From assembly GCF_009914755.1 (NCBI RefSeq), contig NC_060938.1: a stretch of 64,000 nucleotides of DNA. The stretch is one strand, 5' to 3'. Below the pieces are notes generated by a model. The model was not told the origin of the DNA. It searched no databases and saw only the letters and a program-made list of their open reading frames with translations. Position numbers and translations under genes: made by a program. Positions 1-24,254 of this stretch are shown here, piece after piece. Position 1 is the first letter of the stretch. Each line of letters begins with the position of its first letter. This DNA comes from the human T2T-CHM13v2.0 reference genome, Homo sapiens.

Positions 1-3000
1 CTTGACACAGGTGGTGGTCGCCAGGTGGTCGTTCTAAACTTAACCACTGAACTGTGCGGATATTTATTAATGTCTCTGCAGGCCTATCACAGTTCACGAC
101 TTTGAAAAATTCTATTTTGGGGGGAAAACGTGGACACCAAACAGGAGTAGCTCTGGGCACCCCAGGAGCCATGAGAGGCGACTGACCCACTTCTCTGTTT
201 GACAGAGGAGGGAACCGAAGCTCAAATAGAAAAAGGGGCTGCCCAGCAGCACGCTGCAGGAGGCAGGCAGGAGGGACCCTGTTTGGAGGGAGAGGAGGGG
301 ATTAATTTGAGGGATTAGAGGCACAGAGGCTCTGAGCACACGGAGAGCCAGCCGGGACTTGGTAATATCTATAAATATTTGAGAGTCACAAGAATAGTTT
401 TTCCAAGCAGTCGAAGACAAGATAGCTGAGTGTGGCTGAGCAAGGGTCAAAGGACAAGAGCCAAGGTGGCCAGGCCATCAAATGGTGTGGCTGCATATCT
501 ACCATGTGGCCCCCCGGCCTGTGGGAGCCCTACTGTGCGCCAGCCTCTGCCAGGCACTGTGGCTGTCAGAACACCAGGGGCCAGACCCCGGCTCTGTTCT
601 CTGGGGTGCCCATCTGGGGCCCTGGGGAAGACAGAAGACACCCCAGATGTCAGTGGGAGCCCCACTGACCTCCACTCCCCACCCCTTACCTGTCTTCCCT
701 AAACACATCTGCTCTGGGCAGCCCCCAGGCCTTTGCACCTCTTGGAGGGTGGCCTGTCTGTCCTTGGAAACTCCTACCCATTCTTCATGCCTTGGCTCAA
801 GTGTCCCTGCTTCCCGGAAGCTCTTCCCAATACCCCAGGCCAGGGTTCACAACCTGGGACCCCAGAGCATTGTGGGCAAACCCCTTCTGTATTCTGTCCG
901 CTGGCCTAGGAGGATCTGTTGTGGGCCTCTGTCCCCGGCACTGGAGGGCCAACCGGGTCTTTTCACAGAGCTGGTACCCAGAGGGGGCTGGAGTCCACTT
1001 GGGAGGGAGGGGCAAGAGCGTCATGAAAACCCCAGGGAAAAGGCGACAGGGAAGACACAGAGTTTGTCATGTGGACAAGAAGGCAGGGAAGGGCATTCTC
1101 TACAGCAGGGACTGCGTGGGCAAAGGCAGGGGCATGAAGGTGGCAGCTTGTGGGGAACTCGGAAGCAGGGCGACAGCATGGGGGGGCAGCCAGTGGGAGG
1201 GACCAGGGAAGAGAGACCCCTCAATGTACACCTGCCCACCAAAGGGAGCCATTGAGGGCCACAGTGCCACCAGGTGACATGGTCCTTTTGCTCTTCAGCA
1301 AATATTTACAGGACTGTCCCATAAGTCAGTCCTGGCTCCAGGCCCTGGGGGGTGTGGGAGAGGAGGGGGCCAGGACCAGCACTCTCAGAGCTCAATCCAG
1401 ACCCACAGACCCAGCCTGTGATGTGCAGACTCCACAGTCCAGGGGCCAGGAGGCAGGACCGACCATAGGGTCATCCCTGTGGACACTTCAGGACCCCTTC
1501 ACTGTGACCACCGTGTGGTCTGAGGTTCCCCAGAGACCCTCTACCTGGGCCTGCTCTGGGCCAGGTCCCAGGAGAGATGCTTCCACCACAGGGGCTCACG
1601 GCACCCAACATCCCTGCAACCTGGTTGTGGTTAGGACACCCACTTTACAGATGAGAAAACTGAGGCCCAACCAGGGCCAGGACTTTGTCAGTGACTGGGT
1701 CTGTGGGACCCCAAACCCTGTGCCCTTCTGTGCAGGAAGCCATGCTGACCAACTTCCCTTCCACTCCCCTGGGCTTTTGGTTCTGAATCCCAGGCACCAA
1801 ATGCAGGACAGAAACCCACTGGGGCAGCCCCGACACTGGCCAGAAGGGAAGATTCTGGAAAAGCCCTTCAGGCAACTCTGAGAACACTAATTGGGTGAGA
1901 GGGAGAGGAGGGCAGGACCCCTCCCCAGTTCTAGGAGTCCTTGCCCCACGCCACCCCTGGCAACTCCAGAAAGGCCACATGGCCCGATGCAGCCCAGGAG
2001 CCCAGGCCCTGGCCACTGCCTCCAGCCTTTATGGCTTAGCCCAGGGAAGCCTCAGCCCGCCTGGGACAGCAACGCTGACGCCATCAGCAGCTCAGGCAGC
2101 AGATCCGCCCACCTGGCACACCTGCCTACCTGTGCACCCAGCCGGGCGGGGTCATGCCTCTGTCCTCAGTGCCTGGCACACAGGAATAGGTGCCGGAGAG
2201 CCTTGGCCGGGCACAGGGAAGGAGGGAAAGAGAAAGAGAACCACCGCAGGGAACCCCCAGGCTGGCCTCAGGGCACCCCATGAATGCTAAGTTTTTCCTC
2301 AAGTCTCAGCTGAGTTAAGCAGTGTTTCCTCCCCCCCACAGGCGGTACAACCCAGGTGGTGAAATGACAGCCAATGTGGGGCACCAGGGAAGGGCCCTGG
2401 CCTGGGCCAGAGCCTGAGTTTGGGCCTGAGGTCATCTGTGTGACCACAGCCAGGGCTGTCGCTCTTTGGGCCTCACCGCCCCCACCTGGACCTTGGCCAC
2501 GACAAGGTGGGCCTGGCTGATGGGTATCAGGTATTTGGGGTCTGAGATTGAACCACCTCAGAGACTGGACCCCTCCTCCCAGCACAAGACATGTTGGTCC
2601 TGTCCCTGTGGGACCCACAGTGGGGGCTGCACATCAGCTCCATGGCCCAGGAGATGGCCCTGCTCTGAGAGTCCACCCTGGGTCTCTGTGTGAGCCCACC
2701 TGCCCCCAGGCTCCCACCTGGGTGTTTCCAAGCCACTCACCCACGGCACTAAGGGTCAGCTGGCAGAGCCCAGGGCCCCTCTGCCCTAGACCTGGGCCCA
2801 GGCTGGGCTCTGCTCCTTGGGGGAGGGATGCTCCTCTACCCGGCCTCCTCCCCAGGATGCCAATTCTGGCCTCGGGAGGGAGTGGCGAGGACGGAGACCC
2901 TGTGGGCCAGGGGAGACAGTGCTGAAACCCAGCAGCCAGAGCTGGGCCTGCCGCCCACACAACGCCTCGGCTCAGGCTCCGGAAGGAAAACACGGGAGGG

Positions 3001-3726
3001 GTGTTCCCAAAGTAGGGGTCAGGGTGCCAGGGGAAGTCGTGGAGGAAGTGGCAAATATTCAAACTGGCTGATCCCAGGCCTGCCGCGCAGGTGGTCCCGT
3101 GAAGTCTACCAAGGCTTAAAGTTTGGCACCGGGAGGGAGGCCGCGGGGGACACTCCCCAGAAGCTGTCGCGGGATTCCCCCAAAATGGCTCCAAGACGCG
3201 GCTGCCTGGTCCAGCCGCGAGGACTCCATCCCCCACCCCCGCCCCCCAGAGGCGGACACTTAAAAGCTCAGAGCCAGGCAACTGGCAGCCCGGGGGCTGG
3301 GGCGGGTGGTGGTTGGGGGTGGGGTGGGGTCGGGGGAGAGAGCGCCGGGGCAGTGCGGAACGGCACGAACGGAACCCGGAGGGTCCCCGGGGACCAGCGA
3401 GAGTCCAGGGCAGGGAGCCAGAGGGGCGCTGAGGACCGCACAGGACCAGGCGGCCCCGGGTAGGGGGCAGCCCGGCCCTCAGTGGCGCTAGCCCCAGCCC
3501 CCGCCGCAGCGGCCCGGGCCGGCGGAGGAGCCCCGCGCGAGGCTCCCCAGCGCCTCGCGGCGCGCACACACGCACCACACACACGCACCTGGCCCGCAGC
3601 CCCGCCGAGGCCGCCCGCGGGCCCTGGGGGATGCGCTCGGGTGGAGCCCCCTTCCCCCGCCTTCCCCAGCGCCCTCACCCCCGACCCGGCCCCCGCGAGC
3701 CGCGGCACGGGAGACGCTCCACTCAC

Positions 3727-3755
3727 CTGAGTTTCTCCATGTCTGCGGCAGAGGC
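3727..3755 (-). CDS. BEGAIN: BEGAIN common 29-nt coding exon, ASAADMEKL(S), with internal ATG at 3740
   Basis: Minus strand reads ctgac (branch point) cctctcgtttggtttctcgcAG | GCCTCTGCCGCAGACATGGAGAAACTCAG | GTGAGT. Canonical acceptor and donor, phase 0 in and phase 2 out. MEKLS is the known start of the short BEGAIN isoform. Confidence 0.95.
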
Positions 3756-4260
3756 CTGCGAGAAACCAAACGAGAGGGTCAGCAGGCAGGAGGCGTGCGC
3801 TCCGCGGCCGCGCCGGGCAGAGCCGGGCACAGCGGGCACGGCCGGGCAACCCCGCGGGGCCCCGTCCGTGGGAAGCCCGGCGCCGCGCGTCCCCAGCTTC
3901 CAGTCCCGGCCGCGGCCCCCGTGACTCAGTGGGCGCGCCGGGCCGCGGCCGAGTAACAGGTGAGCCCGCCCGGGCCGCCGCGCTCCCCGCACCGAGTTAC
4001 GCCCCCCGGGGCGAAGAAGGGGCCGGCCCGGGATGGCCCGGCCAGGGGCGATCTCGGCCTCGCCCGGAGGAGGGGGACTCGGCCTGTCCCCGTTAACTCT
4101 CCGGCGGCCGCGGCCCCGCTGCTCCCCCCGCCCCGCCCGTTAACCCTTCCTGCCCCGCGCTCCCTCCCGGAGGAAGCCGAACCCCGGAATCGCAGAACCT
4201 CCGAGTCGGAGAATGTTGGGGAATTCGGGGCCGTGCAGGATTGCAGAACCTGACACTCAC

Positions 4261-4281
4261 ACAATCCGAGGGCGATGGCAT
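4261..4281 (-). CDS. BEGAIN: Possible alternative first exon MPSPSDC
   Basis: aaATG, 7 codons, TGT|GTGAGT phase-0 donor; the exonic side of the donor is weak. Confidence 0.3.
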
Positions 4282-4714
4282 TTGGAGCCTCGACTCCTCA
4301 ATCAGGGACCCGCTGCCCTCAGATTCTGGGGTTTTGGGCCTGGCTTGCCCCTCCCGGGCCCCAGGGATTAACCCGTGAGCGCCCGGCTCGCCGGCGGGGC
4401 TCCCTGCCTTGCTTGCGCAGACCCGCCCGCGCGCGGCTTGGAGACCCTCCCTGCCCAGCCCCGCTCAGCCGGGCAGCCCCTCCGCGCGCCGGGCAGGGGG
4501 ACCCACCCGCCGCCGTTAACCTTGTGGGCGCGGGCGAGCGACGGGGACCGCGAGCGGCCCGGGCGGGATCGCACTTCCTGCGTGGAGCTGGGGGCGCCGG
4601 GCGGGCTCTCTATCACCCGGGAGAGGCCGCTCCCCGGGGCTTTGCCCGTCTTTCTGTGCCGTGACTGGCACTCAAGGGGGACAGGGGTCCGAGCTCAGGG
4701 ACCACGCGACAGAC

Positions 4715-4738
4715 CTGGGAAGACTGATGACTGCCCAT
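4715..4738 (-). CDS. BEGAIN: BEGAIN alternative proximal first exon, coding part MGSHQSSQ
   Basis: gggATGG strong Kozak context, 8 codons, CAG|GTCTGT phase-0 donor in the proximal CpG island. MGSHQSSQASAADMEKLS resembles a rodent Begain N-terminus as I recall it. Confidence 0.7.
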
Positions 4739-7700
4739 CCCGGCCCCTCGCGCCGGGCGCCGCCGCCGCGTCCGCCGGGAGCGCGCTCCGCTCGGGTCCG
4801 GGCCCCACGCCGCCTCCCCCACCGCCCCGCCGGGCGAGGGCGCAGCCCGGCCGCAGCGCCAAGCTAGAAGGCCCGGCCCCGGGGCCTCGGCCAGGCTCGG
4901 CCACCAACTTCCCGGGTGCTCGGGCCGGCCTTCCGGCGCTCTCCCGGCCTCAGTTTCCTCACCTGAAAGCTGGGGGGAAGGGGGAGGCAGCTGGACGAGG
5001 CGCTCCACTGCCCTTCCGCACCCGCGGGCTGCGGATCGGCTGGGGTGGGGGAAGGAATTTCAGGGGAAGGGATCCCTAAGGCGCCCGGATGGCGGTTCCC
5101 CTCCCCAGACGCTCTAAAAGTTGTCCAAGACCACAAGCCTGGACCCCTCCATAAACCCTCCTCCTGCAAGACAAGGAGTTTGCCGGGAAGACTTTGCCGC
5201 CGGCCAGCGCGACCCCCACACCGCTCTCTTCCCCAGGCCCACCTTTCCGGGTCCCCATGACAGCGCTTCTCATGCTAGGTCCCAGCATACAGCAGGCGCT
5301 CAATAAACACGGACAGTGCATGCCTGGATCCTACGGCACTGGAGCCTGTCTTTCCTGGCCCTTTCCCCTCCTGGCTGTGAGCTCCCGGGCAGGAGCCCTG
5401 TGTTCTCACCAGGACACCCCCAGCACCCAGCAGGCTTGGCCTGCGCTGAGCCAGCGCAGGGTGGGAGGAGCCGTCCACTCAGAGGGTCAGACCTGAACCA
5501 GGATCAAACCAAACCCAAGAAATCCAAGTGTTCCTCCATCCACGGACACCCACTCGTTCACTAGCTCTGGGCTAAGTTCTCCAGCAGAGAGGGGACAGCA
5601 GACAAAGCAGAGAGGGGACAGCAGAGGAAGCAAGCTCTGCTCTCCAGGGGCTAATGAGGAAAACCCCCTCCGCCCCCCTCCGGTCCTGGGAGGCCACCCT
5701 CAGCAGAATGGCCACGGTAGTCATAACAATAACGTCCACCGCCCCTTACACATCATAGCGCTTCCCACGGCTCCTCACCACAGCTCTGCCATGGAAGCCC
5801 CGGACCCCCTATGCGGGAGCAAAGCTCCAACAGAGAAGAGGCTTGCTGGAGATCCCGCAGCTGAAGGGGCCCAGCTGCGCCTGGACCCCACTGCTCAGGA
5901 GCCTTTCCCACCCAAAGGCTGTCTCTGGTTGCCAACCTCAATCACTCACGGCGAATGACCTGCCAGGGAGTTTGTCTAAAATTAATAAGAATGTATTAAA
6001 ATTTAATTTTAAAAATCTAGCATTAATTATTTACATTGAATGTTTCAGCCCTTCTAAAAGGCCTGGATGGGAATTCCCCCCACCCCCAGAAGGGAACTGG
6101 GGGGAAAGGCAGGGGAGGTTGCTGAGCTGCCCTGGTGGAGCAGTGGGGGCTGGGCAGGGCAAGAGACAGGCAGGGAACAGGCAGCCCCTGCCCTTCAAGC
6201 CTATTCTAGAGCCTGAAGCCTGGCTTTGATGCTGCTGTAGCTCAAATCCTCCTCTGACCCATTGCCTTCGGGGCAACCACTGCCCTCCCCCTTGGAGGCT
6301 GTATCCTCCATGCGGCCCTCTGTGGGAACTCTGGGGAGTCACTGAGTTTACCCCCACACCAGATGGGACAGGACTCTGTGTCCCAGCTCTGTGTCCCTGG
6401 ACCAGCCCAGCACCTGGCAGGGGCGGGGGGACTAAAAGATGGGTTGTGCCTGATGCTCTCCATGCAGGAGTGACACAGGCATCTTTATGGGTGGCTAGGG
6501 AGAAGATAGCAGGGAAGCTCCCCTGGCCGAGGTGCTACGCCCTCGGGGACAGTCTCCCATGAGGCTCCTGCACGGGCCCAGCACCCCGGGTGCAAGTTTT
6601 GATTCAGCCATTCATTGACCACAAGACTCGGTGATTTTCGTGAGACCCTTACTACGGGTGAGGAAACGGAGGCCAGCGCATGAAGTGGCTTGCTCAAGTC
6701 CCCTGAGGTTAGCCGAGGCCTGCCTGATGGGCTGGAGAACCGCGGCGCTGCCTGGGTCTTGGGCCAGTGGGTGGGGGCCATGAGGATGAGGAGTCTGTGG
6801 GGTGCCCCAGGGTTCCCACTGTGAAGTGAGGGGGCGGGATCTCCCTTAGGGAGGCTGGGACCCCAGGGTGCACACTGGGTGCCCTCGGGGGACAGTCCTC
6901 ATGGCACAGTCCTTCCCCGCCTCTGGGCGCTGTCCAGCCCCATTCACACCCGCTGCCTCTTCCTCCAACACACCTCTCCCCACCGTCTGCCTTAAGTCCC
7001 TACCTCTTTCTGGTGGTCCAGCCCAGCAGCCACCTTTATCTTCTGACCCCTCACAGGAGCCCTGCCTGTTGGCCACTAGCCCCTGCTCTCTCCTCACTCC
7101 CACCTGTGGCCATCTGGGTCCTGATGACGTGCCCATCCCTGCATGGGCTGAGGCCTGTGGAGCTCCCAGCTGCCTCCCTCCCACCTACTACTTCCTTTTC
7201 TTACTAGCGATGGGAGGGCCGCCCGGGTCAGAAACATGCCCGTCCACCCTTTCCTCTGCTGCTGTGTCCCCAGGGTGGCCTTGGGCCCGGTCACAGAAAT
7301 CAGTTCCATTGAAGTGTCACAGCAGCTTTGCTGGGTGGGTCTCATCAGCTGTGCATTTGCAGTTTATAGGCAAGAGCTTGGAGATTTGGGGCCAGGGACC
7401 TTGCTATCTTCCCTGTGGCACCCGGGCACAGAGACTGGCACACAGTAGGGCCTCCCCAGACAAGGTGGAGGGGGTGACTCTGTGCCACCTGTCAGGCCTC
7501 CATGAGGGGTTGGTAAATACTGACCTGGCCCTGCCAAATCATCCGACCCCCATGCCCAGCAGCCTCCCCTCGCTAGGCACACACTGGCCACACTGGCTGC
7601 CTTGCTGGCTCCAGGCTCACCTGGCCCATCCCTGTCTTAGGGCCTTTGCACTGGTTCCTTGCACCTGGAATGTTCTGCCCTGACTCTGCACGGCCGGGGC

Positions 7701-8988
7701 CTCCCTTCCCTGACTACCCATCTAAAGCATCGGTGAGGCCCGACAGCAGAGCTCCTCCATTCTGCCGCTGCATCTCCCTGTGTCCAGGGCCTGGCATGGA
7801 AGCCCTGCGGTGAGCAGGTGGTGTTGGCCTGAACGAATGCAGTGCGTCTTAATCCCCAGCCAGAGGCACCTGCTCCTCAGCCCTGGGCAGCATCCTTCCT
7901 GCTCTCACAGCAGGGTCCTCGTCATTCTAACACCATCCGCGTCCCTTCTTCAAGCCTGCCCCTGCGCGGGAGGGCACAGAGCCCCTTGGTACCGGGCATC
8001 GTATCTTCGCAGAGCTCTGCCCTGGGAAACCCCTCTTCAGATGTGGGTCAGTCCTGCTGTGGCCCCCATAATGGAGCACATAAATCCTCTGCCGGACCAT
8101 CTGACCCCATTGCACGGCTGCCCACTGCCCCCTAAATCCGGCTGATTTCTGACACTGTGAAGAGGAGAGTGAGCCCACCTCTGCAGGGGGCCTGCCAGGT
8201 GAGGAGTGCCATGCCAAGGACAGAGGCCTGGGTTCCTGTCCCAGCTCTGCCTCCGACTCAGGCCAGCCCCACCCTCCCTCAGGGCATGGGGCTGGCCTCT
8301 CCGACCCCAACCCCAGTGCTTGGCCCCCCAGGACTCCTTACACCCATGCTGGGCTCTAGCTTCCTCAGTTTCCCTGAATCTTGTTGCCCTTACCCCTCCT
8401 GGAGGGGAGGAAATGAGCCTAACATGTGGAGGGCAGAGATGAGCCCTGGGGGGTTGGGCCTTCTCCGCAGCTGTGGGACCTTGGGCAGGGCTCTCAACCT
8501 CTCTGACCCTCAGTTACTCATCTAGGAAGGAAAGATGGAAAATCCTTCACTGGGAGCAACAAGGCGGCTGTGTGTAAGGGACTGTCCTGGGGACGGGGTG
8601 TGGCTGTTCTGGAGAGCCAGCCTTCTAACTGATCACTTGGAGTGGACAGCTTTCTAAGATGTTTTACATGGTACCCTGCCTTGTGACATTCATTTGGCAA
8701 ACACTGACTGTGTGCAGAGCCCTGTTCTGGGGGATTCAGCACTGGTCAGACTGGATGAAATTCTCTGCTCTCACTGTGCTGATATTCTCATGCAGGAAGA
8801 CAGACCCCAAGAGATGAATCAGTACACCACCCCTCCCACCCTGTATGTCCGACGGGGATATGTGTACAGAGAAGGATGGGAGGCAGGGTGGGGCAGGAAA
8901 GGGGTGCAGTGATGAACACAGAGGCCCGGATGAAGTGAGCTGAGCCCAGTAGCAGATGAATCCCAAGGGGCCACTGGAGGAGGGAGCA

Positions 8989-9190
8989 GGTGAGTCTGGG
9001 GGGAGGGGCTTCCGGAGGAGGGGGCTGGTGAGTCTGGGGGGAGGGGCTTCCGGAGGAGGGGGCTGGTGAGTCTGGGGGGAGGGGCTTCCGGAGGACGGGG
9101 CGGGTGAGTCCCGAAGGGGCCGCCAGAGGAGGGGCGGGTGAGTCCTGGGAGGTCGCTAGAGGAGCAGCCCTGCGGCTGTGCCTGGTGAGT
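8989..9190. repeat. 38-bp G-rich VNTR
   Basis: GGTGAGT anchors at 8989, 9027, 9065 and 9103 (38-bp spacing), with degenerate copies at 9137 and 9184. Confidence 0.92.
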
Positions 9191-10254
9191 TGGGAAGCAT
9201 CCCGGTCACCAGTGGGAAGGAGCAGCTGGGGTGCGGGGCCTCGTGCACCCTCATCAGGACCTTGGCTTCTGCCATGAGGTGGATGGGAGCCCCTGGAGGG
9301 ATGAATGGGGGCGTCTCTGGCACACCACTGTGTGGAGAGGGGCAAGTGCAGGACCCCAGGGCATCCAGCCAGGCCCACGGGGCCTGGGGTGGAGGTGGGA
9401 GGGATTCTCAGATTCCCAGGCAGTCTAGAAGCAGACATGGAAGGAAGAGAACCCCTGAGGTGACAGAAGCATTGTGACCTCATGTTGAGCAGGGGAACAT
9501 GGGGAATTCAGGGCTGGTGGTGCCCCTTGGCCATCCCAGGGGAGACACCAAGGGCTGGGAAATGGGCTTGGAGTTCAGGGGAGGCTCCAGGAGATGTGAA
9601 CCTGGAAATGGCCAGATCAGAGGTGACACAGCCGCAGCACTGGGGAGGCCGCCAGGGCAGCCACGGTGGGAGGCGACAGGGGCTGGGACAGAGCCCGGGA
9701 CTCTGCCACTGTTGGGGATCAGGAGGTGAGCAGGACCGGCCAAGGAGACTGGGAAAGGGTGGGTGGGAGGTGGGAGGAGAGTCTGCATTAAGGGTGGAGG
9801 TGGTCCTTCGGGGGCTGTCTCAAGGAGGAGAGCGGGATCATCGGTGTCATGCGCTGACCCACAGGTAGGACAAGGACGGAGAGCCGCCTGGGCCTCGTGA
9901 ACCCCAGGCATCCCCAAGGGCCTCGCTGGTGCTGGGCACGTGGTGGGGTTCCCCAGAGCCTCCGCTGCAGTCCCAAATGAGCCGCGGGCTTTCCTGGCCT
10001 TATCTGATCAATGGGAGAGGGAAGAGTGCTTGCCCTGGGTTACCCGGCAAGTTGAGGATCTGAACCCAGGCCCTGGCTTGGGGCTGTCCCCAGATGGGGC
10101 CAAGAATGTCCTTCCCCTGGGGAATTTGGGCACCTGGCCTCGGCTGCAGAGGTGACCCTGTCCCACCTGTGACCTGAGCCCTGGGTCTTGTCTAGGCTCT
10201 GTGTGACTTCATACAGGGCCTCCCTTTTCCCAGCTGTGCCCCGGTGCCGCCAGG

Positions 10255-10500
10255 CTAGGCTGGTGACTGCGAACTGGCCTCCCGGAGCTAAATCTGGCCC
10301 ACCACCAGCATGTTGTATTTGGCCTGCACAAAGGTTTTTTTTTTTTTTTTTTTTTAAACATTTGAGCCAACATTTAAAAATTGGGAGTTTACATTTTAAA
10401 ATCCGTATTTTTGGCTTCTACTGAAAATTTTGGAAGATCTGGCAACGTCGGCCCACATTCCCACGTGGCAACAGTCAGCGGGGCTGGGAAGCAGCTGCCC
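10255..10500. mobile_element. hAT-Charlie DNA transposon relic (MER102-like)
   Basis: aaatctggccc...tttggcctgcaca...gaagatctggcaac motifs. Confidence 0.45.
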
Positions 10501-13126
10501 CCTCTCCAGGCACCTTGGGGGTCCCCCATTCAGGAAGGGGACCATCCACATCTGAGCTTTCCCTATTATCGGGAGGCTGAGGCCAGTAGGGCAGAGTGAC
10601 TTATTCAAGGTCACTCAGCCGGAAAGCCTCTCAGACAGGATCCAACTGCAGCCTTGGGGACTTGCATTGGGGGTGCTGTCATGACCCCACCCAGGGCCAT
10701 GCCCCTGGCCCTGTGCTTCCTGCTCCTTCTTGACTTTTGTTCTCAGATAAACATTGGATCGAGTCATTCACACTAGTATAAATGAGGCTCAGTCCCAAGT
10801 CTGTGATAACCGGCGGTCCTAGAGACCTTCTACAGTAGCCTCTTGTTTGCTGACCAGTGAAGAGGAGGACCAGAGACTCACCCATGGCCACTCAGCCAGG
10901 CAGGACAGCACAGGACAGGACTGAAACCCAGGGTCCTCCTGGGGCAGCAGCTTCCTCCCAGAAGTGGTTCATGGTGGAGCCCCAGGCATTGTCTCTCAAG
11001 AAACGGTCTGCAGGTTGGTGACTGGAAGCCAGGGATCTGCCTTGCTTCCCCAGAGCCACCCCCTCCAGAAAGCATTCTGGGGACACAGGCTTGTCCAGGC
11101 CAGGAAGGTACGAGGCACACAGTGGGTGCTCAAATCAACAGACAAGCCCCTGTGAAGGGCTGGCATCGCTATCTTTATCACCACTATCATCCCGGCGGCT
11201 GAATCCCTACCTTGGGCCAGGGTCCTTCCCCAGTTATCTCTAATGTCCCCATGGAGACACTGGGGGGAGTGTGACTTGAGCCAGGGCACAGCCCAACCAG
11301 GACTCTGCTGGACTCAGTCTTCCGGGCCTCAGTGCCTGGTTTATAGAATGAGACTGACCCTAGGATCACTTTCTCAGGCTTGCTGTATTTGATCTGAGGC
11401 TGGAGCTGAGGGGCTCAGAGTTGGTGCCCATCATGAGATACGATCCTGGGGGGCTGGTGGGGGAAGGTGGGGTGCAGCAGGAGTTAGGCCTGGAGACCAG
11501 GGCCTCCAAGGCCAGGTATGGTCCAGCCCCTCCTGCTGGGGCTGATGCCACCTCCCGCTTCAAGGAGTCAAGCTGGGTTCCCGGGTGGGGCCACTCTGGC
11601 CAGGCCCCAGGGTGCAGCCTCGCCCCCTGAACACACTGTTGGGCCCCAACAGGCCCTGAGGCCCCAAGAGATATGTGCAAGAAGCCCTGGGATGGAATCC
11701 TCCAGGGCCTGGGTGGCACCAGGACTCCCCCAGGGCCCAGCAGCCCCCAGAGGACGGTCTGCGTGGTAAGTGGAGCCAAGAGCAGCAGAGAAGTGGGGCT
11801 CCCAGCTCACCACCCCTGGAGGAGCAGGCGGGGAAACAATGCTTATTAGGTGCCTGTGGTCATGACTGACTTTTCACTGCTGGGGAAACTGAGGCATGAT
11901 GAGGATGGGTGACCTGTCCAGAGTCACACAGAAGGCCACTGACCCTCGAGATGCACTTCCACCCAGAGCTGCCTGGCCCCAGCTGGCCATGCAGACCTAC
12001 AGGGAAAGGGCTGGCAGGGCTTCAAATCACCAGAACTTCCCACCCACCGGCCTGTCCCTGGCCATCCCTGGACAGAGCAGGCCACCTGAGGGCCAGCAGC
12101 ACACAGGTGGCAGAGGTGCAGAGGTGGAGGGCAAAGTGCCTGGGCCCAACCCGGCTCCTCCACCTCCCTCCTCCTCCATGCACTGGGGACATAATGATGG
12201 CGCCGACCTCCTGGGGTTGCGCCCAAGCTGGGGGTCAGAAGCTGAGAACACTAGTCAATGCTCGGCGAGTATCACTCGGCGAGAGTCACCGTGCTCACCC
12301 GGAATTCATCCTCAGAACAGACCCCCTCCCGGCAGGAAAGCCTTCCTGGGTGGCTACAGGTTGATATCCCACAAACCCATCCCACGGCCTCCGTCTCCAT
12401 CCTGTGTTGGGAGAAGGTGGAACTGGGGCACGAGCAACATCCGGGCAGCCCACGAGGACCCTCCCTGGCCCAGGGGACACAGATGGTACAGGGCAGGAAA
12501 GGTCAGCACCAAGGTGGGGGTGCCAGCCCCTGGATGAGGTCCCATTTGCCCGACGCTCTGCACAGCTCCATCACCAGGACAGCCAAGGAAATCTCACCAC
12601 ATCTTTTGCCCATCCACCTGTCCATCTGTCTGAGGCCAGAGTGCATGTGTGGACGGGGTACGAGGAAAGAGCTCTACAGCCCAAGCCCGGACTACCTGTG
12701 TCACCCGGGACAAGTGGCAGCCCCTCACAACCTCAGTTTCCAACTCCATATAATTGGGGCAGCTATGAAAGCTGCCTGACAGGCCTATGGGACAGTCTGC
12801 CTCATGTGGGGTTGTGTCAGGTTCAAAAATGTAAAAGGATAATCACGGGAAAGCCCAAGGTAAACCACCAAGGCTCTGCCGCAGTGGGGAGGGGATTATT
12901 ATAATTGTTATCATTACTGTTCATGCATATGCCTTCCGTACAGAAATAGTCTGCCTGCCCCAAAGCCAGAAATTTCACCTTAGAGATTCATTCTTTTGGC
13001 AATTAAGGTCTTTCCCGTTACAAATATTATAAATGGGGTGTGGGGAGGGAACTCGGAGCAGGTCAGCCAGGGCCTGTGGGGAAGCGGCACATGGGGAGGG
13101 AAGAGACCTCTGGGGTTGAGACTCAC

Positions 13127-13768
13127 CCGACCTGGAGACCTCCAAGGGGAGGCAGTCCGGCCTCCACGCTTGCCACTGCCCAAGCAAGGCCCACTAGTTC
13201 CCACGGCCTGGCCTGGCCCCACTCTGCTTGCAGCCTCAGTGGCCGCCTCCGAAGAAAGCTGGGAGCTCAGGGCTGGGTCCTTCTCCCCTGGGGCTGCAGC
13301 TCTTGTAAGGGCCTCCTGGGCTAGACCTTGGCCTCGATCCACTGCAGAGGGCTCTGGGCTGCGGCCTCTGGGCACCCTGAAGGCCTCCAGGGTCCCAGGG
13401 TCCAGAACCCGCACAGTGACCTCATCCAGGAACCTGGAGAAGGGCAGTCTGGCCTCCCGCCAGCGGCCCAGGCGTGCGAGGGAGCCAGTGACAGCCCGGC
13501 TGCCTGTGTTCAGGGACTCTGGGGAGGAAGGCTGGGCTGGCGACACCCGGGCCATCTCCTGGCTGGACCGAGCTGCCCAGCGGTGGCAAGATGCTTTGCC
13601 CTTGGGGTTCCGACCTTGGCTGGGGCTTGGCATGTGGCTTCGAAGGTCCTGTCTGTGAGCTTCCTTGATGGGGGCTTCTGTCCCGGGCTCCAGGAGGGAG
13701 CTGTAGCCGTCCTGCCTGGGACAGGTAGGGTTAGAGCCCCGTGCCTGGGAGCTGGCCCCTGAGAGCAT
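13127..13768 (-). CDS. BEGAIN: Candidate large alternative BEGAIN coding exon (214 codons)
   Basis: aggATG at 13768, open for 214 codons to CGG|GTGAGT at phase 0, in frame with the common exon. Unique, non-repeat sequence. Confidence 0.6.
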
Positions 13769-14289
13769 CCTCCTGAGTCAGTCCAAGGTCCGGGCTCCCC
13801 AAGAGCGCCGTCACCCACTCCTCTCCTCCCATGGGGCTGGGATCCCTGTGCCCTCTTGGGGGCTGTGCCTCCCGTCCTCACAGGCCAGGGCTGCCTGCCA
13901 GATGCCCGCCTGCCCATTGATCCAGTGGCAGGGCCTCTTGGCCTCCCACCCCCAAATCGATTCTCACTAAATGAGAGCTGAGCTTCAGGGCTTAGAAAGT
14001 GCTAGAGAGGGGAAGGTCGTGTCCTGGGCTCTGCCTGGGGAGGAGCCCTCCCTGAGTGAGCTCCCATGGTGCACAGGGCCCTAGGCTGGGCCTCCCCCTC
14101 TCCTACTCTCACATCTCCTCTGCCAGGTGCGGTGCAGGGTGCAGGGGCACAGAGGACAGGCAGTGGACAGATGGCCACGGTGGCCACCATGATGGCTTGA
14201 GTGCTGGGCCTGAAGCAGGGCAAACTGGAACTGCAGCAAACCAGCAAATGGAAGGGGGTGGCAGAGGCTGCGGGCAGCCCACAGTCCTC

Positions 14290-15085
<796 letters not shown>

Positions 15086-15838
15086 GGTTAGGGTGAGAAA
15101 AAGCAGTTGTTAACGCTATGAGCAAGAGCCTTTGGCACATGGAGGCCTCGGGTGTAGTTAGGTGGGAGTGGGGCCAGGGAGATAAACTTAGAGAAGGGTT
15201 AGAGCCAGACCTGGACCCTCCATCATTTGTGTGAAGGGAGACACGCCTGCCCACTGCACCCCACACAGAGATCCTTCCTAGGATGCGGCTTTAGGCTGCT
15301 AGACTGAAGGAAGGCTTTCCAGGGGTGGCAGCCCAGGCCCTTGGCCTGGTGGGCATTACCACCATCCCTGGCCTGGCCTCTGGTGCTGCTTGGAGCGAGG
15401 CTGAGGCCCTGTGTGGCATGCTCATAGCTGTACATCTGGGCTCTGTCTGGATGCCTCCATCAGGTGCTGAGGACCCCTGCTTTTCTGAGCTCTGCCGGAC
15501 ACCTCTCTGAATGCCCAAAGCGCCCCTGACTGAGTCTGCAAAACTCAGTGCGTGGCCTCACCATGGCCTCAGCCACCCAAGACAGGAACAGGGGCCGCTT
15601 CAACTCTTTCCTTCCCTCTTCCCTGTCCCCGCCCCTGGCTGCCAGGCCCTGGAGATTCAGCCTTTCTCAGGCCTGGCCACCTCCCTGCATCCTCACCATC
15701 ACTTTGCTGGTACCAGACACTACCATGTCTCACTTGGACATCTGCGATCATCCCTTCCTGTGCCTCCTGAGTCGATGCGGATCCAGCCCGGCCTATCCCA
15801 CAAACACGGCGAGTGTGACCTTTTAAAATCACAGACCA

Positions 15839-16154
<316 letters not shown>

Positions 16155-16189
16155 ATCACAGGCCAGGTGACTAGACAACGTCACACCTT

Positions 16190-16640
16190 CATATACACTG
16201 CAAGGCCCTGACAATTGCTGGTGTCTTCTCTCTCTCTCTGCTACCCTCCCGCCCCGTGCTCCCCGCTGCCAAGGAACGTCTCTCAGGTCCTGAATGTGCT
16301 AAGCTCTATCTGACCTCAGGGCCTTTGCACTTGCTTTCCCTCTGCCAGAAACACTCTCACTCTCTCCCTTCCCCTCCTTCCCATCATCTAATTCCCAGCT
16401 GACCTTCAGGGTCCCAGTTTCACAGCCTGTCCCCCTCTGTCCCTCAGATTAGATCAAGTACCCCTGCGGCAGCCCCTTATAGCCCTGGCCCCCAGCTGTA
16501 ACTAATGTTTGCAATTATTTATTATCTGTGTGTGTGTCCCCCCGTAGAATGTAACTTCCACTGTATCCCAGCTCTTTGCATAGGGCCTGGCACATAGCAG
16601 GTGCTCAATGCGTAGTTCTTGAATGACTGACTGAATGAAT
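16190..16640. mobile_element. L2 relic
   Basis: cctcagggcctttgcacttgct...cctggcacatagcaggtgctcaat...gaatgactgactgaatgaatg, the L2 3' end signature. Confidence 0.7.
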
Positions 16641-17885
16641 GGCATAGCAGGTTCAGGCTGTCAGTTCACAAACATCCCCAGCCTGGTGTGGGCCTACTGT
16701 GACTGGAAACAGGATGAGAATATAGGGGAGGGATCTCAGGCTCTCGGGAGGCCACAGTGTCCTCCTCCCACCCTATGGTCCCCGACAGTCGCCCCTCTAC
16801 ACCCGGACAGCCCTTCCCCAGCAGCAGCCGTTCAGCCCCTGCCCTATTACCAGTGGGAAAGAGACTTGGAGGCTGGCAGATCCAAGTTCAAATCCCTTCT
16901 CCAACACTCCAACAGGCCTGCGGGCAAGCCACATCCCCTCCTCATCTGTCAGGTGGGCATGGGGCAGTACTCAGCCCATGGCAGTGCTGGGAAGTGGCAT
17001 GAGCAAGGGACTTCAGGACTCATTAGCACTGGGGCTCTGATGTGGCCGTTTCACTAGCACGCATGGTTGCAGGAGTGTTCTGGGGGCTCTGGCCAACCAG
17101 TCCTCTGAGCTGCTTCCAGAGTTTCAGGCTGCATCAGGCAAGTTTCCGTTGTCATAACAACCTGCTGGCTCTCAGGCGCCTGGGCCTGAGGCTCTAAGGA
17201 TGCTGCCGGCTACCGTGGGCTCACGGCCTGGACCTGCTCACCTACCAGCAGCCTGGACAACCTCTCCTGGAGGGGCTTCCGGCTCCTGGCACCGCAGCCC
17301 CTGCCTCTTGACTCATCTGATTCAGTCCTGCTTCCCAAGCCCATCCTGCGTGCCAAGCTCCGTGCTGTGCATGCGTCATCACCCCAAATCCCCACCCGCC
17401 TCTGTGCATCAGGACAGCCAAAGGCTCTATTTTCTGCTAAAAGAAGCAGGGTCTCAGAAAGGTGCAGTGACCCGTCGGAGGTCACATGGCTTGGGCATGT
17501 CAGGCCCAGGACAGAACCCCAAAGGTCAGGCACTCACACCCGTTTCCTCTCCAGATGCCCAAGCCCCTCTCCTGCTGCCTGGCACACACTGCCCCTGTGG
17601 TTGGAAAGCTGGCCCCTGCCAGCTCGGACAGAAGGGGCATGAGGCTGCCCACTGTCTGCTGGGATTGGAGCAGGAAGACCAGGCCACAGGATGTTGGGAG
17701 GACCCTGCCGAGTGGGCAGGCATGCCGGGCTTCTGCTGACAGTGCCAAACGTCACCTCGCTTCATTCTTACAGCAGGCCTGAAAGCTAGGAGCAGCTACC
17801 CCGCTTCACGGAGGAGGAAACTGGGCTCTGAGGGGTCTCGGGTAAACCCCCATGGTGCGGGCATGCGCCAGGGGCTGCAGCATAG

Positions 17886-18256
<371 letters not shown>

Positions 18257-18799
18257 TCAGAAGTGTCTATTATTATTCCCCTTTTGCAGTTGAGGACACT
18301 GAGGCTCTGGGAATCCGCACACTTGTGCTCCTAATCACCTGCCCCGCTGTCCCTGGATTTTCCACGCTGGCCTCAGAATCTCCAAGGGCAGCCATGGTCT
18401 TGATGTCTCCCAGTCCCCAGCACCCAACACAGGTGCCCCAGTTCTCTTCCTCAGATAGGACATGTACACAGCTGTCCAGGTCTTCCAGGGAGATCCCTGG
18501 GCAAGGACGCCCCTGTAGGAACCCCGGCTGGCCGCTGACCTTTCGAAGAGGTCTCACTGCTTCTTCCTTATTTCCTGAGTGGGTCTTCCAGGGCAAAGCG
18601 GGCCTGGAAAGGCCAAATAGCTGTTAGTTTGGGTTGGCTTTTCTCCCACCAAAGTCAAGGTGGGGTTAAGTCTCCCTGTCTGATCAGCCCCCTCCTGACC
18701 CTGCGCCTGCGTAGTATATGTCTCTGAAGCAGAGGGACATGGGGGTCTGTGAGCAAAACACTGGCATCTGGGAAATCAAGGCATGAGTGACCTGAAGCT

Positions 18800-19440
18800 T
18801 CACCCATTCAACCAACCGTCCTTCACCATCCACCCCTGTGACCGCTCACCCATTTACAGGTGCCATCCACGCACCAACACATCCTTCTGTCTCTGTGTCC
18901 CTCACCCGCTGATGGGCACTCATCTGTTCACTGGTCCTCTCACTCCCGTCTCCATCTGTCCGCCTGCCCATCCCTCCATGTCTGTCCATTCCTCTGTTAC
19001 TTGTGTCTCGTATCCATGCATCCATTGCTTTGTATCCATTTGTGCACTGAGCTGCCTTCTCAGGCCTCTATCCACACATCCGTCAATATACACTCATCAC
19101 CTATCCATGCACTCACTCTTCCAGTGTCCATTCATTCCTCTGTCCATCATTCATGGACATGTATTCAAGTATTCATCCACCCATCCCAACATCCAGGCAC
19201 TACCTGTATCCATTTATGTATCCATTCCTTCATCCATCCATCCAAAGATCCTTCCATCCATTCATCTACCAATCTTGCCTTGTGTATCAGAAGTCTCCCT
19301 CCCTCCACCCATGTATCATCCATTGATATTTTGTTCTATCAATCCAGTCCTGTATCCATATCAACTTTTCCATCTGTCCACCCACCCATCCCTATCTTGC
19401 TACTTACATCCATCAACCTCTCCTCCCGTCCATCTATCCC
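18800..19440. repeat. Ancient degenerate (CCAT)n low-complexity tract
   Basis: Recurrent tccatc/catcc words over about 640 bp. Confidence 0.75.
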
Positions 19441-19823
19441 TCTTTCTCTCTTTCTTTCTTTCTTTTCTTTTTTTCTTTCTTTCTCTCTCTCTCTTTCGTT
19501 TTTCTTCCTTTTTTTTTTTTTTTTTTTTTTTTTTGATGGAGTCTCACTCTGTTGCCCAGGGGCTGGAGTGTAGTGGCACGATCTCGGCTCACTGCAACCT
19601 CACCTCTGCCTCCTGGGTTCAAGCAATTCTCCTGTCTCAGCCTCCCAAATGGCTGGAACTACAGGTGCACACCACCACACCCACCTAATTTTTTTTGTAT
19701 TTTTATAGAGACGGGGTTTCACCATATTGGTCAGGCTGGTCTTGAACTCCTGACCTCAGGTGGTCCACTCACCTTGGCCTCCCAAAGTGCTGGGATTACA
19801 GGCGTGAGCCGCTGCGCCCAGCC
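19441..19823 (-). mobile_element. Alu with (TTTC)n/poly-T tail
   Basis: Antisense Alu dimer. Confidence 0.96.
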
Positions 19824-21012
19824 TATCCCTCTAGGTTTCTACCCATCCATCCGCTGCTCTATCCTGCTAGTGCTTCCCTTCCATACAGTATCATCCACCC
19901 ATGCATCCCCTTCAGCATGCCTGCGTTGCTTCTCCACCTCATGCACCTCTTAATCCCAGCATGCACCCACTGTGGGATGACCAGGCTTCCATGTCTGGCT
20001 TCCCCAGGCAAAGCCCAGGCCTGACCCATCTCCATCCCTGACTTGGGCTCAGGGCTTGCTGATTGAACCAATGACTGCAATTCCCCTGCTTGGCTCAGAG
20101 CTGGGCCCTGGCTGATCCCCACCCCAGGCAGACCACAGAGGCTGCTGTACTGTCCTCCAGACTCAAGGCCTGCTGAGGCAAGGGCCACTTTTGAGTTCCC
20201 TTCCTGGCTAGAGGGGAGAGAAGAGCCCCAGCAGCTCCTGACTCCTGCCGTACTGGCCAAGGTCCATGTCTCCCAGCAAACTGTGGACTCGTGGAGGGCA
20301 AGGTCTGTGTCAGACTCACCTAAGTGACCCCAATGAGCAGTGCAGAGTGGGTGCTTAGGTACAGCATGTTAGGTGAGTGTAGAATTCACACACTTAGTCA
20401 TTCATCATTCATTCATTCATTCATTCCTATAATGATTAAAGCAATAGAGACACCTCTGGCCAGCTTCTCCCACCACAGGCTACAATCTGATGCCTGCTCT
20501 CAGGCCACAGAAGTCACTCCCCTGACTGTAATGGGTGTTAAGCTTCTGATACGGAGCCCTAGAGAGGAGACAGTGAGTCAGCGGCAGAGGAGGAACCAGA
20601 ACCCAGGGCTGCAGACCTCCGTCCAGGCCTCTCCACTAAGGCTAGCGACCAGCTCTGCGGCAGGAAGGGGAGTCAGAAGATAACCATGCGGGGTGATTCT
20701 AGACCAACACGGCGAGTCCTAGGGTCACCCACCCATCTGTCCCAGGGATCCTTACCTCCCTTAGGGGGAGGAGCCACACCTCCCCACCGCCATGGCTTCC
20801 ACACTCCAGCAGGACACAGCCTCTCTAAGTCTTGAGACTTGAACACTCTACACTCTCCCCATCACCTTCAGGCCTTGGGCCAGGCTCCTGTAACACACCT
20901 TGACCCCTTCATCTGTTCAGCAACTACTCAGCCCTTGGACCCCACCTCCTGGGACCCTGGGTAATGATTTGTGGACTGTGTCCAATAGCCATGGACTCAT
21001 GGGCTTCAGTCA

Positions 21013-21287
21013 ATCCCTCCCATCCATCCATCCATCCATCCATCCATCCCTCCCTCCCTCCCTCCCTCCCATCCATCCATCCATCCATCCCATCCATCCA
21101 TCCCTCCCATCCCTCCCATCCATCCCTCCTTCCCTCCCTCCCATCCATCCCTCCCTCCCTCCCTCCCATCCATCCATCCCTCCCTCCCTCCCTCCCATCC
21201 ATCCATCCCTCCCATCCATCCCTCCCTCCCTCCCATCCATCCATCCATCCATCCATCCATCCATCCATCCATTCATCCATCCATCCA
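21013..21287. repeat. Compound (CCAT)n/(CCCT)n microsatellite
   Basis: About 275 bp of interleaved ccat and ccct units. Confidence 0.97.
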
Positions 21288-22399
21288 CTCTTCAGCATCA
21301 GGAGTGCCTGCAGGAGTAGGGAAGCTCCTTCAAAGTGTTGCCGTGGAGATGATGCGTGGAAATGCTGATCCAGGGCCCAGTACATAGCAGGCGTTCCATA
21401 AATGGCAGCTATGTGGGCCAGACCCTGCGCCCAAGTCTTGGGAGAGTGGATGGAAGATCTTCCAGATTGCTTAGGGCTCATTTCCTCTCTCCAGGCCTGG
21501 GCTCTGACAGGTGTCCCCCTACTCCACCCCAGCGCATGGAAAACTCATCCTCCAGGCTGAGGTTCTAGGCAGCCCTCCCCTCCCCACTCAGCTCCCAGGT
21601 GCGAACAGCTCCAGGTTTTGACGACAAACGGAACGCGGAGCCTTGGAATCTATAAATATGAGACAAAAGCTGGGGAGGGCCCTTGGCGGCAGCGCAGCCG
21701 CCCATCGCCCAGAGCCCGTGTGCTGAGCCCGGGCAGAGCCGCATCTGCCACAGTGCTTGCTTTTCCAAGCTGCCCTGATTATAGTGAGAGTCGGGAAAAT
21801 TAAGGGTTTGCAGGATGCTGCTGGGGCCCTCTCTGCCGTCTCCCCGCCCTGCGTGTCACAGATGCCAGGCAGAGCCACCCCCAACGGCCAGTTGCCCCTG
21901 CTGGCAAGACCAAGGCCAGCCTGGCAGGGCTGCACACCGCAGTTTGTTAGGGGCTTCTGCCCACAGTCCTCGTGGGAGCCTGGCCCTGGGAGTAGTGGGG
22001 GTCTCTGCTGCTCTTGGCAGGCAGAGGAACTAGGGTCCAGAGAAGGAAAAGAACCTGTCCATGGCCTCCAGAGAGCCAGAGCACTGGGGCCTCCGACGGA
22101 GCCTGGCTGTGGAGACCCCGCCCCACCCATACCCCCAGGGCCTGGACCCCCAGTCTGCACTGGCGGCCGACCTTGGCCATGCGGACTTTGCACGTGCAGT
22201 GCTCCCTATCCATCCGGCCCCGCTCCCGGGTGCCCACTCTGCTCCCATTCTGCCGGCTCAGGAGACTCCAGCGCGTCGCCCACGCTGTTCCTGCCCTGAG
22301 GAAACCACATTGGGGATGGGGTGGGGCACAGACGAGGAAGGAAACACCTCTAAACCAAGCAGGAAGCGGAAACGCTGGGGCAGAAATTCCCATCCAACG

Positions 22400-23530
22400 T
22401 GCTGGGGCTCAGGGAGGGTGAGCGCGCCGGCTGAGCCGCTCTGGGCGAGGCCCTGGCCTCCCTGAGCCTCAGTTTCCTCGCCTGTAAAGGGGCAGGAGGA
22501 TAGTACCTGCCGCGAGGTACTGAATGGGATGGTGGTGTCCGAGGTTCGTGCGCGCCCACGCGCTGCAAACGCTCAATGAGGCGGCCCCGGGTCCAGCCTC
22601 CTTCCGGCTCCCGGGCCTTTCTCCGGCCTCCCAAGCAGGGGCTGGCCCTGCCCCCAGACGCAGGCGGGTCCAGGCCTGCCCGCACCCTCGCCACCCGCCC
22701 GGGACAGCGGCGGGTCCCCAGTCCTCCGGCCGCGCCCTTGGTCACCCGTCCCTCCTTTCCTTCCGCCGCAGGGGCGCGCGTGTCAGGGCGCAAGGACCCC
22801 GCGATAGGACCCGGGCGCTCCCGGCGGCGCGCGGAGGCTGGGCATCCCCGCCCCACCCGAGAGTGCCCAGTTCCCAGGAGACCCGGCCCGGCTCCTCCCG
22901 GGCCAGTGAAGCCTCCACGGCGGGGGCGCAGCGCGGAGGGGAGCGGGGCGGGGGGCCGGCCACCTCCCGCGCTGAGCAGGGACCGCCCCAGGCGTGGGTG
23001 GCGCCCGCCCCGCCTCCGCGCCCGCGCCCGCGCCCTGCCCTCCCGGCTCGCAGGTACTCACCGCCCGGCGCAGCCGGCCCGGCCGGCGACCGCCAGTCCA
23101 CATGGCCCCAGGGCAGCCGCGCCGCTCACCGCCGCCGCCGCTACCGCCGCCCCCTCCCCTCCGAGGCCGAGCGCGCCGGGAGCCGGCGCGGCCGGGGCTC
23201 CCCCACCCCGCCCGGCTTCCCGCAGGGAGCGCCCGCCCCCCGCCCCCAGCCCGGCTCCCCGCCAGCCCCGGCCCCGCGCAGCCGCGGCTGAGCCCGCGCG
23301 TCCTCCCGGCAGCGCCCGGCCGGGGCGCAAGTGGTGGGCGCAGGGCCGGGCAGGGGCGCGGGGGTGCGGCGTGCGCGGGGGCCAGGCGAGGAATGGCAGA
23401 GGGGCAGGGAATGAATGAACCCGCGCCAGCTTGAATGGCTGAGCGCGTGAATGAATGAGTGCGGTAGAGCATGCGGGGCTGGGGGGGCGGGGGGAATGAA
23501 TAAAGGAGAGAACTAATGCACGGGCGCGAA
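22400..23530. promoter_or_regulatory. Distal CpG island promoter of BEGAIN
   Basis: Dense CpG, many GGGCGG/CCGCCC boxes, interrupted (GCC)n at 23130-23152, contains the distal first exon. Confidence 0.92.
23062..23103 (-). CDS. BEGAIN: BEGAIN distal first exon, coding part MWTGGRRPGRLRRA
   Basis: gccATG at 23103, 14 codons, then GCG|GTGAGT phase-0 donor, in frame with the common exon and inside a CpG island. Confidence 0.9.
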
Positions 23531-24254
23531 GGTGAGTGACAGAGTGAATGGGCCCTTGAAACCCAGAGGCTGTCAGTAATGACCTGCCCAACCTTTTCAT
23601 CGGTCCATCCATTCAATCCCTCAACATTTATTAGACACCTAGTGTGTACCAACCAGCCCTGCTGTAGGCCCCAGGGGGTACAGTAGCGAGTGAAACCAAG
23701 CTCCTGCCCTCGCAGAGTCACATTTTACAGATGAGGAAACCCTGGCTCCCAAGGGTGCCTCCTGGCCAAGCTGCCCCTTACCCTGCCCTTGCTCTGCCCG
23801 AGCCCCCAGTCGGTGGCTTCCAGGGCTTGCCTTCTCCCCAAGGAGCTCTCAGGAAGGGAAGGTGGCTTCAGGAGGACCAGTGTTGCCCCCTGCCTATCCC
23901 TCCAGTCTGAAGCATCCCACCGACCTGCCCGGTAGAGCCCAGGCTGGCCAGTCCTACCCTGGTAAAGGTGCAGCGTGAACCCTCCTCTCTCCTCCCAGAG
24001 CGGGCAAGGGGCAGCCCTGAGGGTGCCAGCTACATGAGGGTCTTCCATCCCAGCCAGCCCAGCAGCAGCCAGCGTGGGAACCCGGGGAGGAGCACTGGCA
24101 GCCAGGGAGGGTCCTGCGTGGTGGAAACAGAGCTGGCAAAGCCCGTGTGCTTCGCTCATATCCTCCCTCGGGACCTATGGGCTCATGGTTCACACATGCT
24201 TATATCATTTCCAAGTACATGGCAGATTAGAAGATGCTGCGAATGAGTACCTTG

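What the first reader, a model, noticed from the sequence alone, without database searches (positions are those of the whole stretch)
3727..23103. Modular N-terminus: several phase-0 first exons converge on one 29-nt hub exon
Seen: four ATG-bearing segments (MWTGGRRPGRLRRA, the 214-aa exon, MGSHQSSQ, MPSPSDC) all end at GT donors in phase 0. All would read through ASAAD into MEKLS, and the hub exon has its own ATG for non-coding first exons. Inference: promoter choice selects an Arg-rich, a lipid-modifiable, a long or no extension on the same core, and so may set localisation. This is the closest thing to an undescribed system in the window.
Basis: partly seen in the sequence, partly recalled or inferred. 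Interest (0 to 1): 0.7.

Follow-up and report, generated by a model that had tools for sequence, protein, structure and literature searches.

The report
Swappable front ends on BEGAIN
The human synapse gene BEGAIN has four alternative protein starts in frame with one tiny shared exon; three are already annotated, but the fourth, a 214-residue exon missing from human RefSeq, carries an ancient unstudied motif that likely docks an unknown partner.

Summary
All four ATG segments, their phase-0 donors and the 29-nt hub are in the sequence. The pattern alone is chance-level: 20 of 42 consensus-like donors in the interval have an in-frame ATG. Conservation is what supports it. Three exons are RefSeq exons, and promoter-specific BEGAIN transcripts are already described in sheep and mouse. 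The 214-codon exon (13127-13768) is absent from the human RefSeq table but is joined to the hub in 43 gene models of other mammals, birds and lizards. It is mostly fast-evolving disorder around a 27-residue motif (13376-13456), predicted helical, that also occurs in divergent, probably fish, BEGAIN proteins and matches nothing in Pfam or PDB. MGSHQSSQ keeps a myristoylation consensus (19 of 20 entries); the Cys of MPSPSDC is not conserved and its start context is weak. Promoter choice is not the only switch: two alternative donors turn the MGS start into a 41-codon uORF. Human use of the long exon, myristoylation and any localisation effect are untested. Verdict: a known kind of gene design with one under-annotated, interesting exon.

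The parts
23062..23230 (-). RefSeq-selected first exon; coding 23062-23103 gives the 14-residue Arg-rich start MWTGGRRPGRLRRA; CpG island
   Evidence: RefSeq table; 30 of 35 entries of this class identical, opossum variant present
13127..13768 (-). Coding part of a long alternative 5' exon (214 codons), not in the human RefSeq table; 5' end unknown; CpG-poor
   Evidence: joined directly to the hub in 43 of 155 motif-bearing proteins fetched
13376..13456 (-). Conserved 27-residue motif (residues 105-131 of the long exon), predicted short helices; no Pfam or PDB match
   Evidence: negative
4715..4793 (-). RefSeq first exon; ATG 4738 in strong context gives MGSHQSSQ, an N-myristoylation consensus (predicted)
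   Evidence: RefSeq table; 17 of 20 entries identical, Ser/Thr at residue 6 in 19 of 20, including quail
4613..4738 (-). 41-codon uORF formed from the same ATG when the RefSeq donors at 4521 or 4507 are used instead of 4715
4261..4309 (-). RefSeq exon; ATG 4281 in weak context gives MPSPSDC; least conserved start
   Evidence: RefSeq table; 7 different sequences among 9 entries
4963..5608 (-). RefSeq 5' exon with three donors (5554, 5243, 4963); no in-frame extension; the two longer forms carry upstream ATGs, out of frame or stopped
   Evidence: RefSeq table
3727..3755 (-). 29-nt hub exon: ASAAD, then own ATG at 3740 (MEKL); entry phase 0, exit phase 2
   Evidence: RefSeq table; ASAA[DE]M[ED]K conserved in mammal, bird and lizard models

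Best explanation
BEGAIN has four conserved ATG-bearing 5' exons in frame with one 29-nt hub exon, which likely give one scaffold core different front ends: an Arg-rich peptide, a predicted myristoylated peptide, a weakly used short peptide, or a 214-residue disordered arm with a predicted helical docking motif. Shown: frames, donors, start contexts, conservation, RefSeq status of three exons. Inferred: (1) the long exon is spliced to the hub in human as in other species' models, giving about 812 residues, about 88 kDa; (2) its motif folds on binding a conserved partner and so adds an interaction next to the dimerising coiled coil; (3) MGS is myristoylated and, doubled by dimerisation, raises membrane affinity; (4) output is set by promoter choice and also by donor choice and leaky scanning, which fall back on the hub's own ATG. 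Localisation control is the likeliest purpose for MGS, partner recruitment for the long arm.
For: Frames and donors. All four starts occur among the 120 listed (of 608) orthologue entries: MW 35, MG 20, MP 9, long 19, no extension 15, other 12, no hub 10. Long exon: 21 hits at 43-98% identity, 19 fused to the BEGAIN coiled coil; 43 proteins join it directly to the hub; 44 of 45 unspliced mammal-type ORFs read Val-Ser 75-125 residues after the motif, as a conserved GT-GAG-T donor would (a loose test). Identity to human in six mammals is 77-92% over residues 101-130, 70% over 1-10 and 27-58% elsewhere: protein-level constraint on an island. A mammal profile finds the motif in 11 of 12 bird and gecko long N-termini (E 2e-13 or better; the miss is a truncated model). 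A library-wide profile search gave 48 hits, 47 with the strict motif; 7 carry BEGAIN core sequence, 4 of them divergent unnamed records. AlphaFold: helices 98-106, 110-121, 124-130, pLDDT 76-79 over 111-130 in otherwise low-confidence chain. Literature passages: two promoters, alternative first exons, one paternally expressed; N-terminal homodimer and C-terminal PSD-95 binding; protein in dendrite, nucleus and postsynapse.
Against: No human RNA, ribosome or peptide data were available; the long exon is not in the human RefSeq table. Orthologue evidence is gene models, related by descent and possibly by projection, and the 120 listed are biased to entries with the hub. The mouse CNS western passage reports a 65-kDa band (PMC5066261), which fits the core (64.8 kDa) or short forms, not an 88-kDa form. 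Short exons lie in CpG islands, so their conservation could be promoter DNA constraint; no dN/dS was run. MGS has no Cys and no basic residue as second membrane signal. The long exon has no CpG island and three possible acceptors lie upstream (13992-14211), so it may be internal. The hub peptide was not found in the four divergent full-length records. No partner is known for the motif.
Confidence: 0.6

Rival explanations
1. The many 5' exons mainly serve transcriptional and translational control (tissue, imprinting, uORFs). The protein is nearly always the MW or MEKL form and short extensions are tolerated, not functional.
For: Promoter-specific imprinting is the documented effect. Most RefSeq 5' variants give no extension and several carry uORFs. 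One 65-kDa band reported. MP start is weak and variable. Phase-0 ATG-donor pairs are common by chance.
Against: Does not explain the motif island in the long exon or Gly2 with Ser/Thr6 in mammals and quail despite otherwise different peptides.
Confidence: 0.2
2. The long exon is a real coding exon in vertebrates but is rare, restricted to a small cell population, or silent in human, which is why RefSeq lacks it.
For: Absent from 31 RefSeq transcripts (table given); CpG-poor; mammals have lost extra conserved blocks that the divergent records keep (27 and 26 of 32 carry two further motifs); not found in the searched supplements of the GENCODE PhyloCSF study.
Against: Human ORF, start, motif and donor are intact, 98% identical to gorilla, with no sign of decay.
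Confidence: 0.15
3. The long ORF is expressed on its own as an unspliced 262-residue protein rather than as a BEGAIN N-terminus.
For: The frame stays open 48 codons past the donor; 10 of 45 unspliced mammal-type ORFs end in the same four-residue pattern.
Against: 35 of 45 end elsewhere; the donor is conserved and 43 models splice it to the hub; bird, lizard and divergent ORFs also end shortly after a conserved exon-end block.
Confidence: 0.05

Closest known systems
BEGAIN promoter-specific transcripts in sheep and mouse (Smit 2005; Tierling 2009; not held, seen through citing passages in PMC2632752, PMC5848613, PMC10713433)
   Same: Same gene; alternative promoters and first exons joining common exons; one biallelic, one paternally expressed form.
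   Different: The passages speak of two promoters and of RNA and imprinting only. I could not map variants a and b to these exons, and saw nothing on the long exon, its motif or myristoylation.
Postsynaptic scaffolds with promoter-selected N-termini: PSD-95 alpha/beta, PSD-93, SynGAP A/B/C (recalled)
   Same: One core, several first exons, N-termini that add lipid or a protein-interaction module.
   Different: Those use palmitoylated Cys or an L27 domain; here a Gly2 consensus and a short motif of no known family, funnelled through a 29-nt exon with its own fallback ATG.
Myristoylation switch by first exon: ABL1 1a/1b, CYB5R3 (recalled)
   Same: Only one first exon supplies Met-Gly with Ser at residue 6.
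   Different: Modification is not shown for BEGAIN; no second membrane signal in the peptide; alternative donors convert the same ATG into a uORF.
Variable-exon clusters: clustered protocadherins, UGT1A (recalled)
   Same: Several same-phase 5' exons spliced to a constant part.
   Different: Their variable exons are tandem paralogues; the BEGAIN exons are unrelated in length and sequence.

Membership tests
Alternative-first-exon genes with variable N-termini | Several 5' exons splice in frame to one common exon | tested here: met
   RefSeq table for three exons
Alternative-first-exon genes with variable N-termini | Each 5' exon has its own promoter | tested here: inconclusive
   CpG islands at about 22250-23750 and 3250-5250; none at the long exon, with possible acceptors upstream; no CAGE data
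Protocadherin/UGT1A-type variable exon cluster | Variable exons are tandem paralogues | tested here: not met
   Peptides of 7, 8, 14 and 214 residues share no likeness; tblastn of 256 proteins hits only 12983-13786 and 4494-4613, so no second copy
N-myristoylated proteins (MGS form) | Met-Gly start with Ser/Thr at residue 6 (consensus recalled) | tested here: met
   Human sequence; 19 of 20 entries (Gly2 was the selection rule)
N-myristoylated proteins (MGS form) | Second membrane signal (Cys or basic patch) beside the myristate | tested here: not met
   No Cys, Lys or Arg in the 8 residues
N-myristoylated proteins (MGS form) | Myristate shown on the protein | not testable with these tools
   Search BEGAIN + myristoyl listed 5 papers, none about it by title or abstract start
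AKAP-type or LD-type helical docking motifs (resemblance recalled) | Short amphipathic helix within disorder | tested here: met
   AlphaFold helix 110-121; hydrophobic moment ranks 7 of 202 windows
AKAP-type or LD-type helical docking motifs (resemblance recalled) | Match to the family's profile or solved peptides | tested here: not met
   No Pfam family shared among 34 members; best PDB sequence E 0.57; no Foldseek match; short motifs can be missed
AKAP-type or LD-type helical docking motifs (resemblance recalled) | Binding to the family's partner | not testable with these tools
   No binding data; no complex was folded
Nuclear localisation signals (MW form) | Basic cluster that drives import | tested here: inconclusive
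   5 Arg, no Lys, no acid in 14 residues; import not testable

The most novel reading that the evidence does not exclude
Human BEGAIN makes an unannotated 812-residue isoform whose first exon carries a vertebrate-wide helical docking motif, found only in BEGAIN and unknown to Pfam and PDB. It recruits a conserved, still unidentified partner to the PSD-95 scaffold, while a sister exon makes a myristoylated form. Exon choice thus rewires the scaffold, and variants in the 642-nt exon are read as deep intronic under RefSeq.
Probability: 0.45. Interest if true: 0.62.

Novelty: new member of a known kind. Interest (0 to 1): 0.45.

Why it matters
BEGAIN affects memory and neuropathic pain in knockout mice (PMC10716515 Discussion), yet the passages I read treat it as one 600-residue protein. 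A conserved coding exon missing from human RefSeq changes variant interpretation, and a motif kept while its flanks diverge is a ready handle for finding a new synaptic interaction. If the imprinted promoter maps to one coding exon, parental origin would change the protein's N-terminus and not only its dose. The general design, alternative first exons on a scaffold, is ordinary.

Tried and rejected
Phase-0 convergence as evidence in itself: rejected. Lipidation through the Cys of MPSPSDC: rejected; the seal entry has Arg there and rodent entries differ. A known domain for the long exon: none in Pfam, PDB sequences, Foldseek or ESM Atlas features; blanks on a short motif do not prove novelty. 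The motif in a non-BEGAIN gene: none recognised among 48 hits, but 41 are exon-only records without core sequence, and 25 of 145 hits were not listed. Prior human annotation: BEGAIN not found in the searched supplements of PMC6886504 (file 1 unreadable, file 8 perhaps cut; hg38 places estimated); GENCODE itself could not be consulted and may already hold this exon, as Ensembl-style primate models do. Mapping mouse Begain a/b to exons: failed. Smit 2005, Tierling 2009 and Yao 2002 are not held.
Full report
Observation. The finding lies in the 5' part of human BEGAIN (minus strand). The hub exon 3727-3755 is 29 nt and reads ASAADMEKL with its own ATG at 3740 in a strong context. The four segments are as described: ATG 23103 (14 codons), 13768 (214 codons), 4738 (8 codons) and 4281 (7 codons), each ending at a GT donor in phase 0 and open into the hub. 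The long segment's donor is the only consensus-like one in its 262-codon ORF. As a pattern this is not beyond chance: 20 of 42 consensus-like donors in 3756-23400 have an in-frame upstream ATG.

What is already known. The RefSeq table given with the finding lists 23062-23230, 4715-4793 and 4261-4309, but not the long exon. Passages of PMC2632752 and PMC5848613 describe two Begain promoters with alternative first exons, one biallelic and one paternally expressed, citing Smit 2005; PMC10713433 cites it and Tierling 2009 and finds no evidence of imprinting in human (passages). Those two papers and Yao 2002 are not held. Passages of PMC5066261 give mouse BEGAIN as 600 residues and a 65-kDa band. 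The Discussion of PMC10716515 states N-terminal homodimerisation and C-terminal PSD-95 binding. Passages of PMC4512258, PMC6909504, PMC3221676 and PMC11163233 added nothing on isoform proteins. Searches for BEGAIN with isoform, splice variant, first exon, myristoyl, PhyloCSF, KIAA1446 and two motif words listed no paper on the long exon or on myristoylation, judged from listings; the library lacks most subscription papers.

Conservation of the starts. A search with the hub and coiled coil gave 608 entries, 120 listed. Among these, 35 begin with the MW peptide (30 identical; an opossum variant), 20 with an MG peptide (17 identical; a quail variant), 9 with a short MP peptide (7 different sequences), 19 with the long exon, 15 at MEKL, 12 other, 10 without hub. 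These are 90% clusters of gene models, not species or observed proteins. Birds have their own set of starts on the same hub, so the design is at least amniote-wide.

The long exon. It found 21 proteins at 43-98% identity, 19 with the BEGAIN coiled coil, from primates, glires, laurasiatherians and an afrotherian. Of 256 proteins fetched, 155 carry its motif: 43 join it directly to the hub, 17 have core sequence without the hub, 95 are exon-only ORFs. In six mammals identity to human is 77-92% over residues 101-130, 70% over the first ten and 27-58% elsewhere. A mammal profile finds the motif in 11 of 12 bird and gecko long N-termini. A profile of 12 exon ORFs against 1.84 billion representatives gave 48 hits, 47 with the strict motif; four divergent unnamed records link it to a BEGAIN coiled coil and C-terminus. 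I infer these are fish from their divergence; the library has no names. They keep two further blocks that mammals lack (27 and 26 of 32). AlphaFold puts helices at 98-106, 110-121 and 124-130 with pLDDT 76-79 over 111-130; in a full-length capuchin model the same helix scores about 55 beside a confident coiled coil at 217-355. No Pfam, PDB or Atlas match was found. A conserved amphipathic helix in fast-evolving disorder is the usual signature of a fold-on-binding docking site (established knowledge; inference here). The partner is unknown.

The short starts. MGSHQSSQ has a strong start context, Gly2 and Ser6; residue 6 is Ser or Thr in 19 of 20 entries. That fits the recalled N-myristoylation consensus. 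There is no second signal, but a dimer would carry two lipids (inference). RefSeq also lists donors at 4521 and 4507 for this exon; with them the same ATG opens a 41-codon uORF ending at 4613, so splice choice toggles between the MGS form and a probably dampened MEKL form. MPSPSDC has a weak context and an unconserved Cys, so leaky scanning to MEKL is likely. The MW peptide has five Arg; a role in nuclear import or acidic-lipid binding is possible but untested.

Against. No human transcript, ribosome or peptide data could be consulted. The reported 65-kDa band fits the 64.8-kDa core or short forms, not the 87.7-kDa long form. The long exon is CpG-poor and could be internal. Short-exon conservation may be promoter constraint. 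GENCODE may already hold the exon; the PhyloCSF study's searched supplements do not name BEGAIN.

Verdict. Observation confirmed; interpretation partly supported. The design is a known kind and mostly annotated. The 214-codon exon with its ancient orphan motif, and the predicted myristoylated form, are the parts worth follow-up. Best explanation 0.6; interest 0.45; new member of a known kind.

Noticed in passing
window 2741-2899 (-): RefSeq exon downstream of the hub; joined to the hub it brings a stop 21 codons into the exon, so it would act as a poison exon for all N-termini.
   Followed up: partly
window 4521-4613 (-): A bonobo model (P0044) starts in frame with the 4521 donor at a codon that reads Ile (ATA) in the window, so that extension is lineage-specific.
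   Followed up: partly
window 5243-5608 (-): With donor 5243, four upstream ATGs open an out-of-frame ORF that runs across the hub ATG, which would repress initiation at MEKL.
   Followed up: no
window about 5390-5850: The promoter assayed for age- and autism-linked methylation in PMC10713433 maps here by offset from the gene end (my estimate), i.e. to the non-coding 5608 exon, not to the RefSeq-selected first exon.
   Followed up: no
window 12980-13000 (-): 10 of 45 unspliced mammal-type ORFs end in the same four-residue pattern about 140 nt past the long exon's donor: probably a conserved intronic DNA element.
   Followed up: partly
window 13769-13780 (-): Rodent and some other ORFs begin 6-15 residues upstream of the human start; the human frame has a stop four codons upstream.
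   Followed up: no
   Followed up: no
bird entries P0089, P0090, P0099, P0117: Birds have further short starts on the same hub, one with Gly2 and Thr6, one of 16 residues not seen among the mammal entries listed.
   Followed up: no
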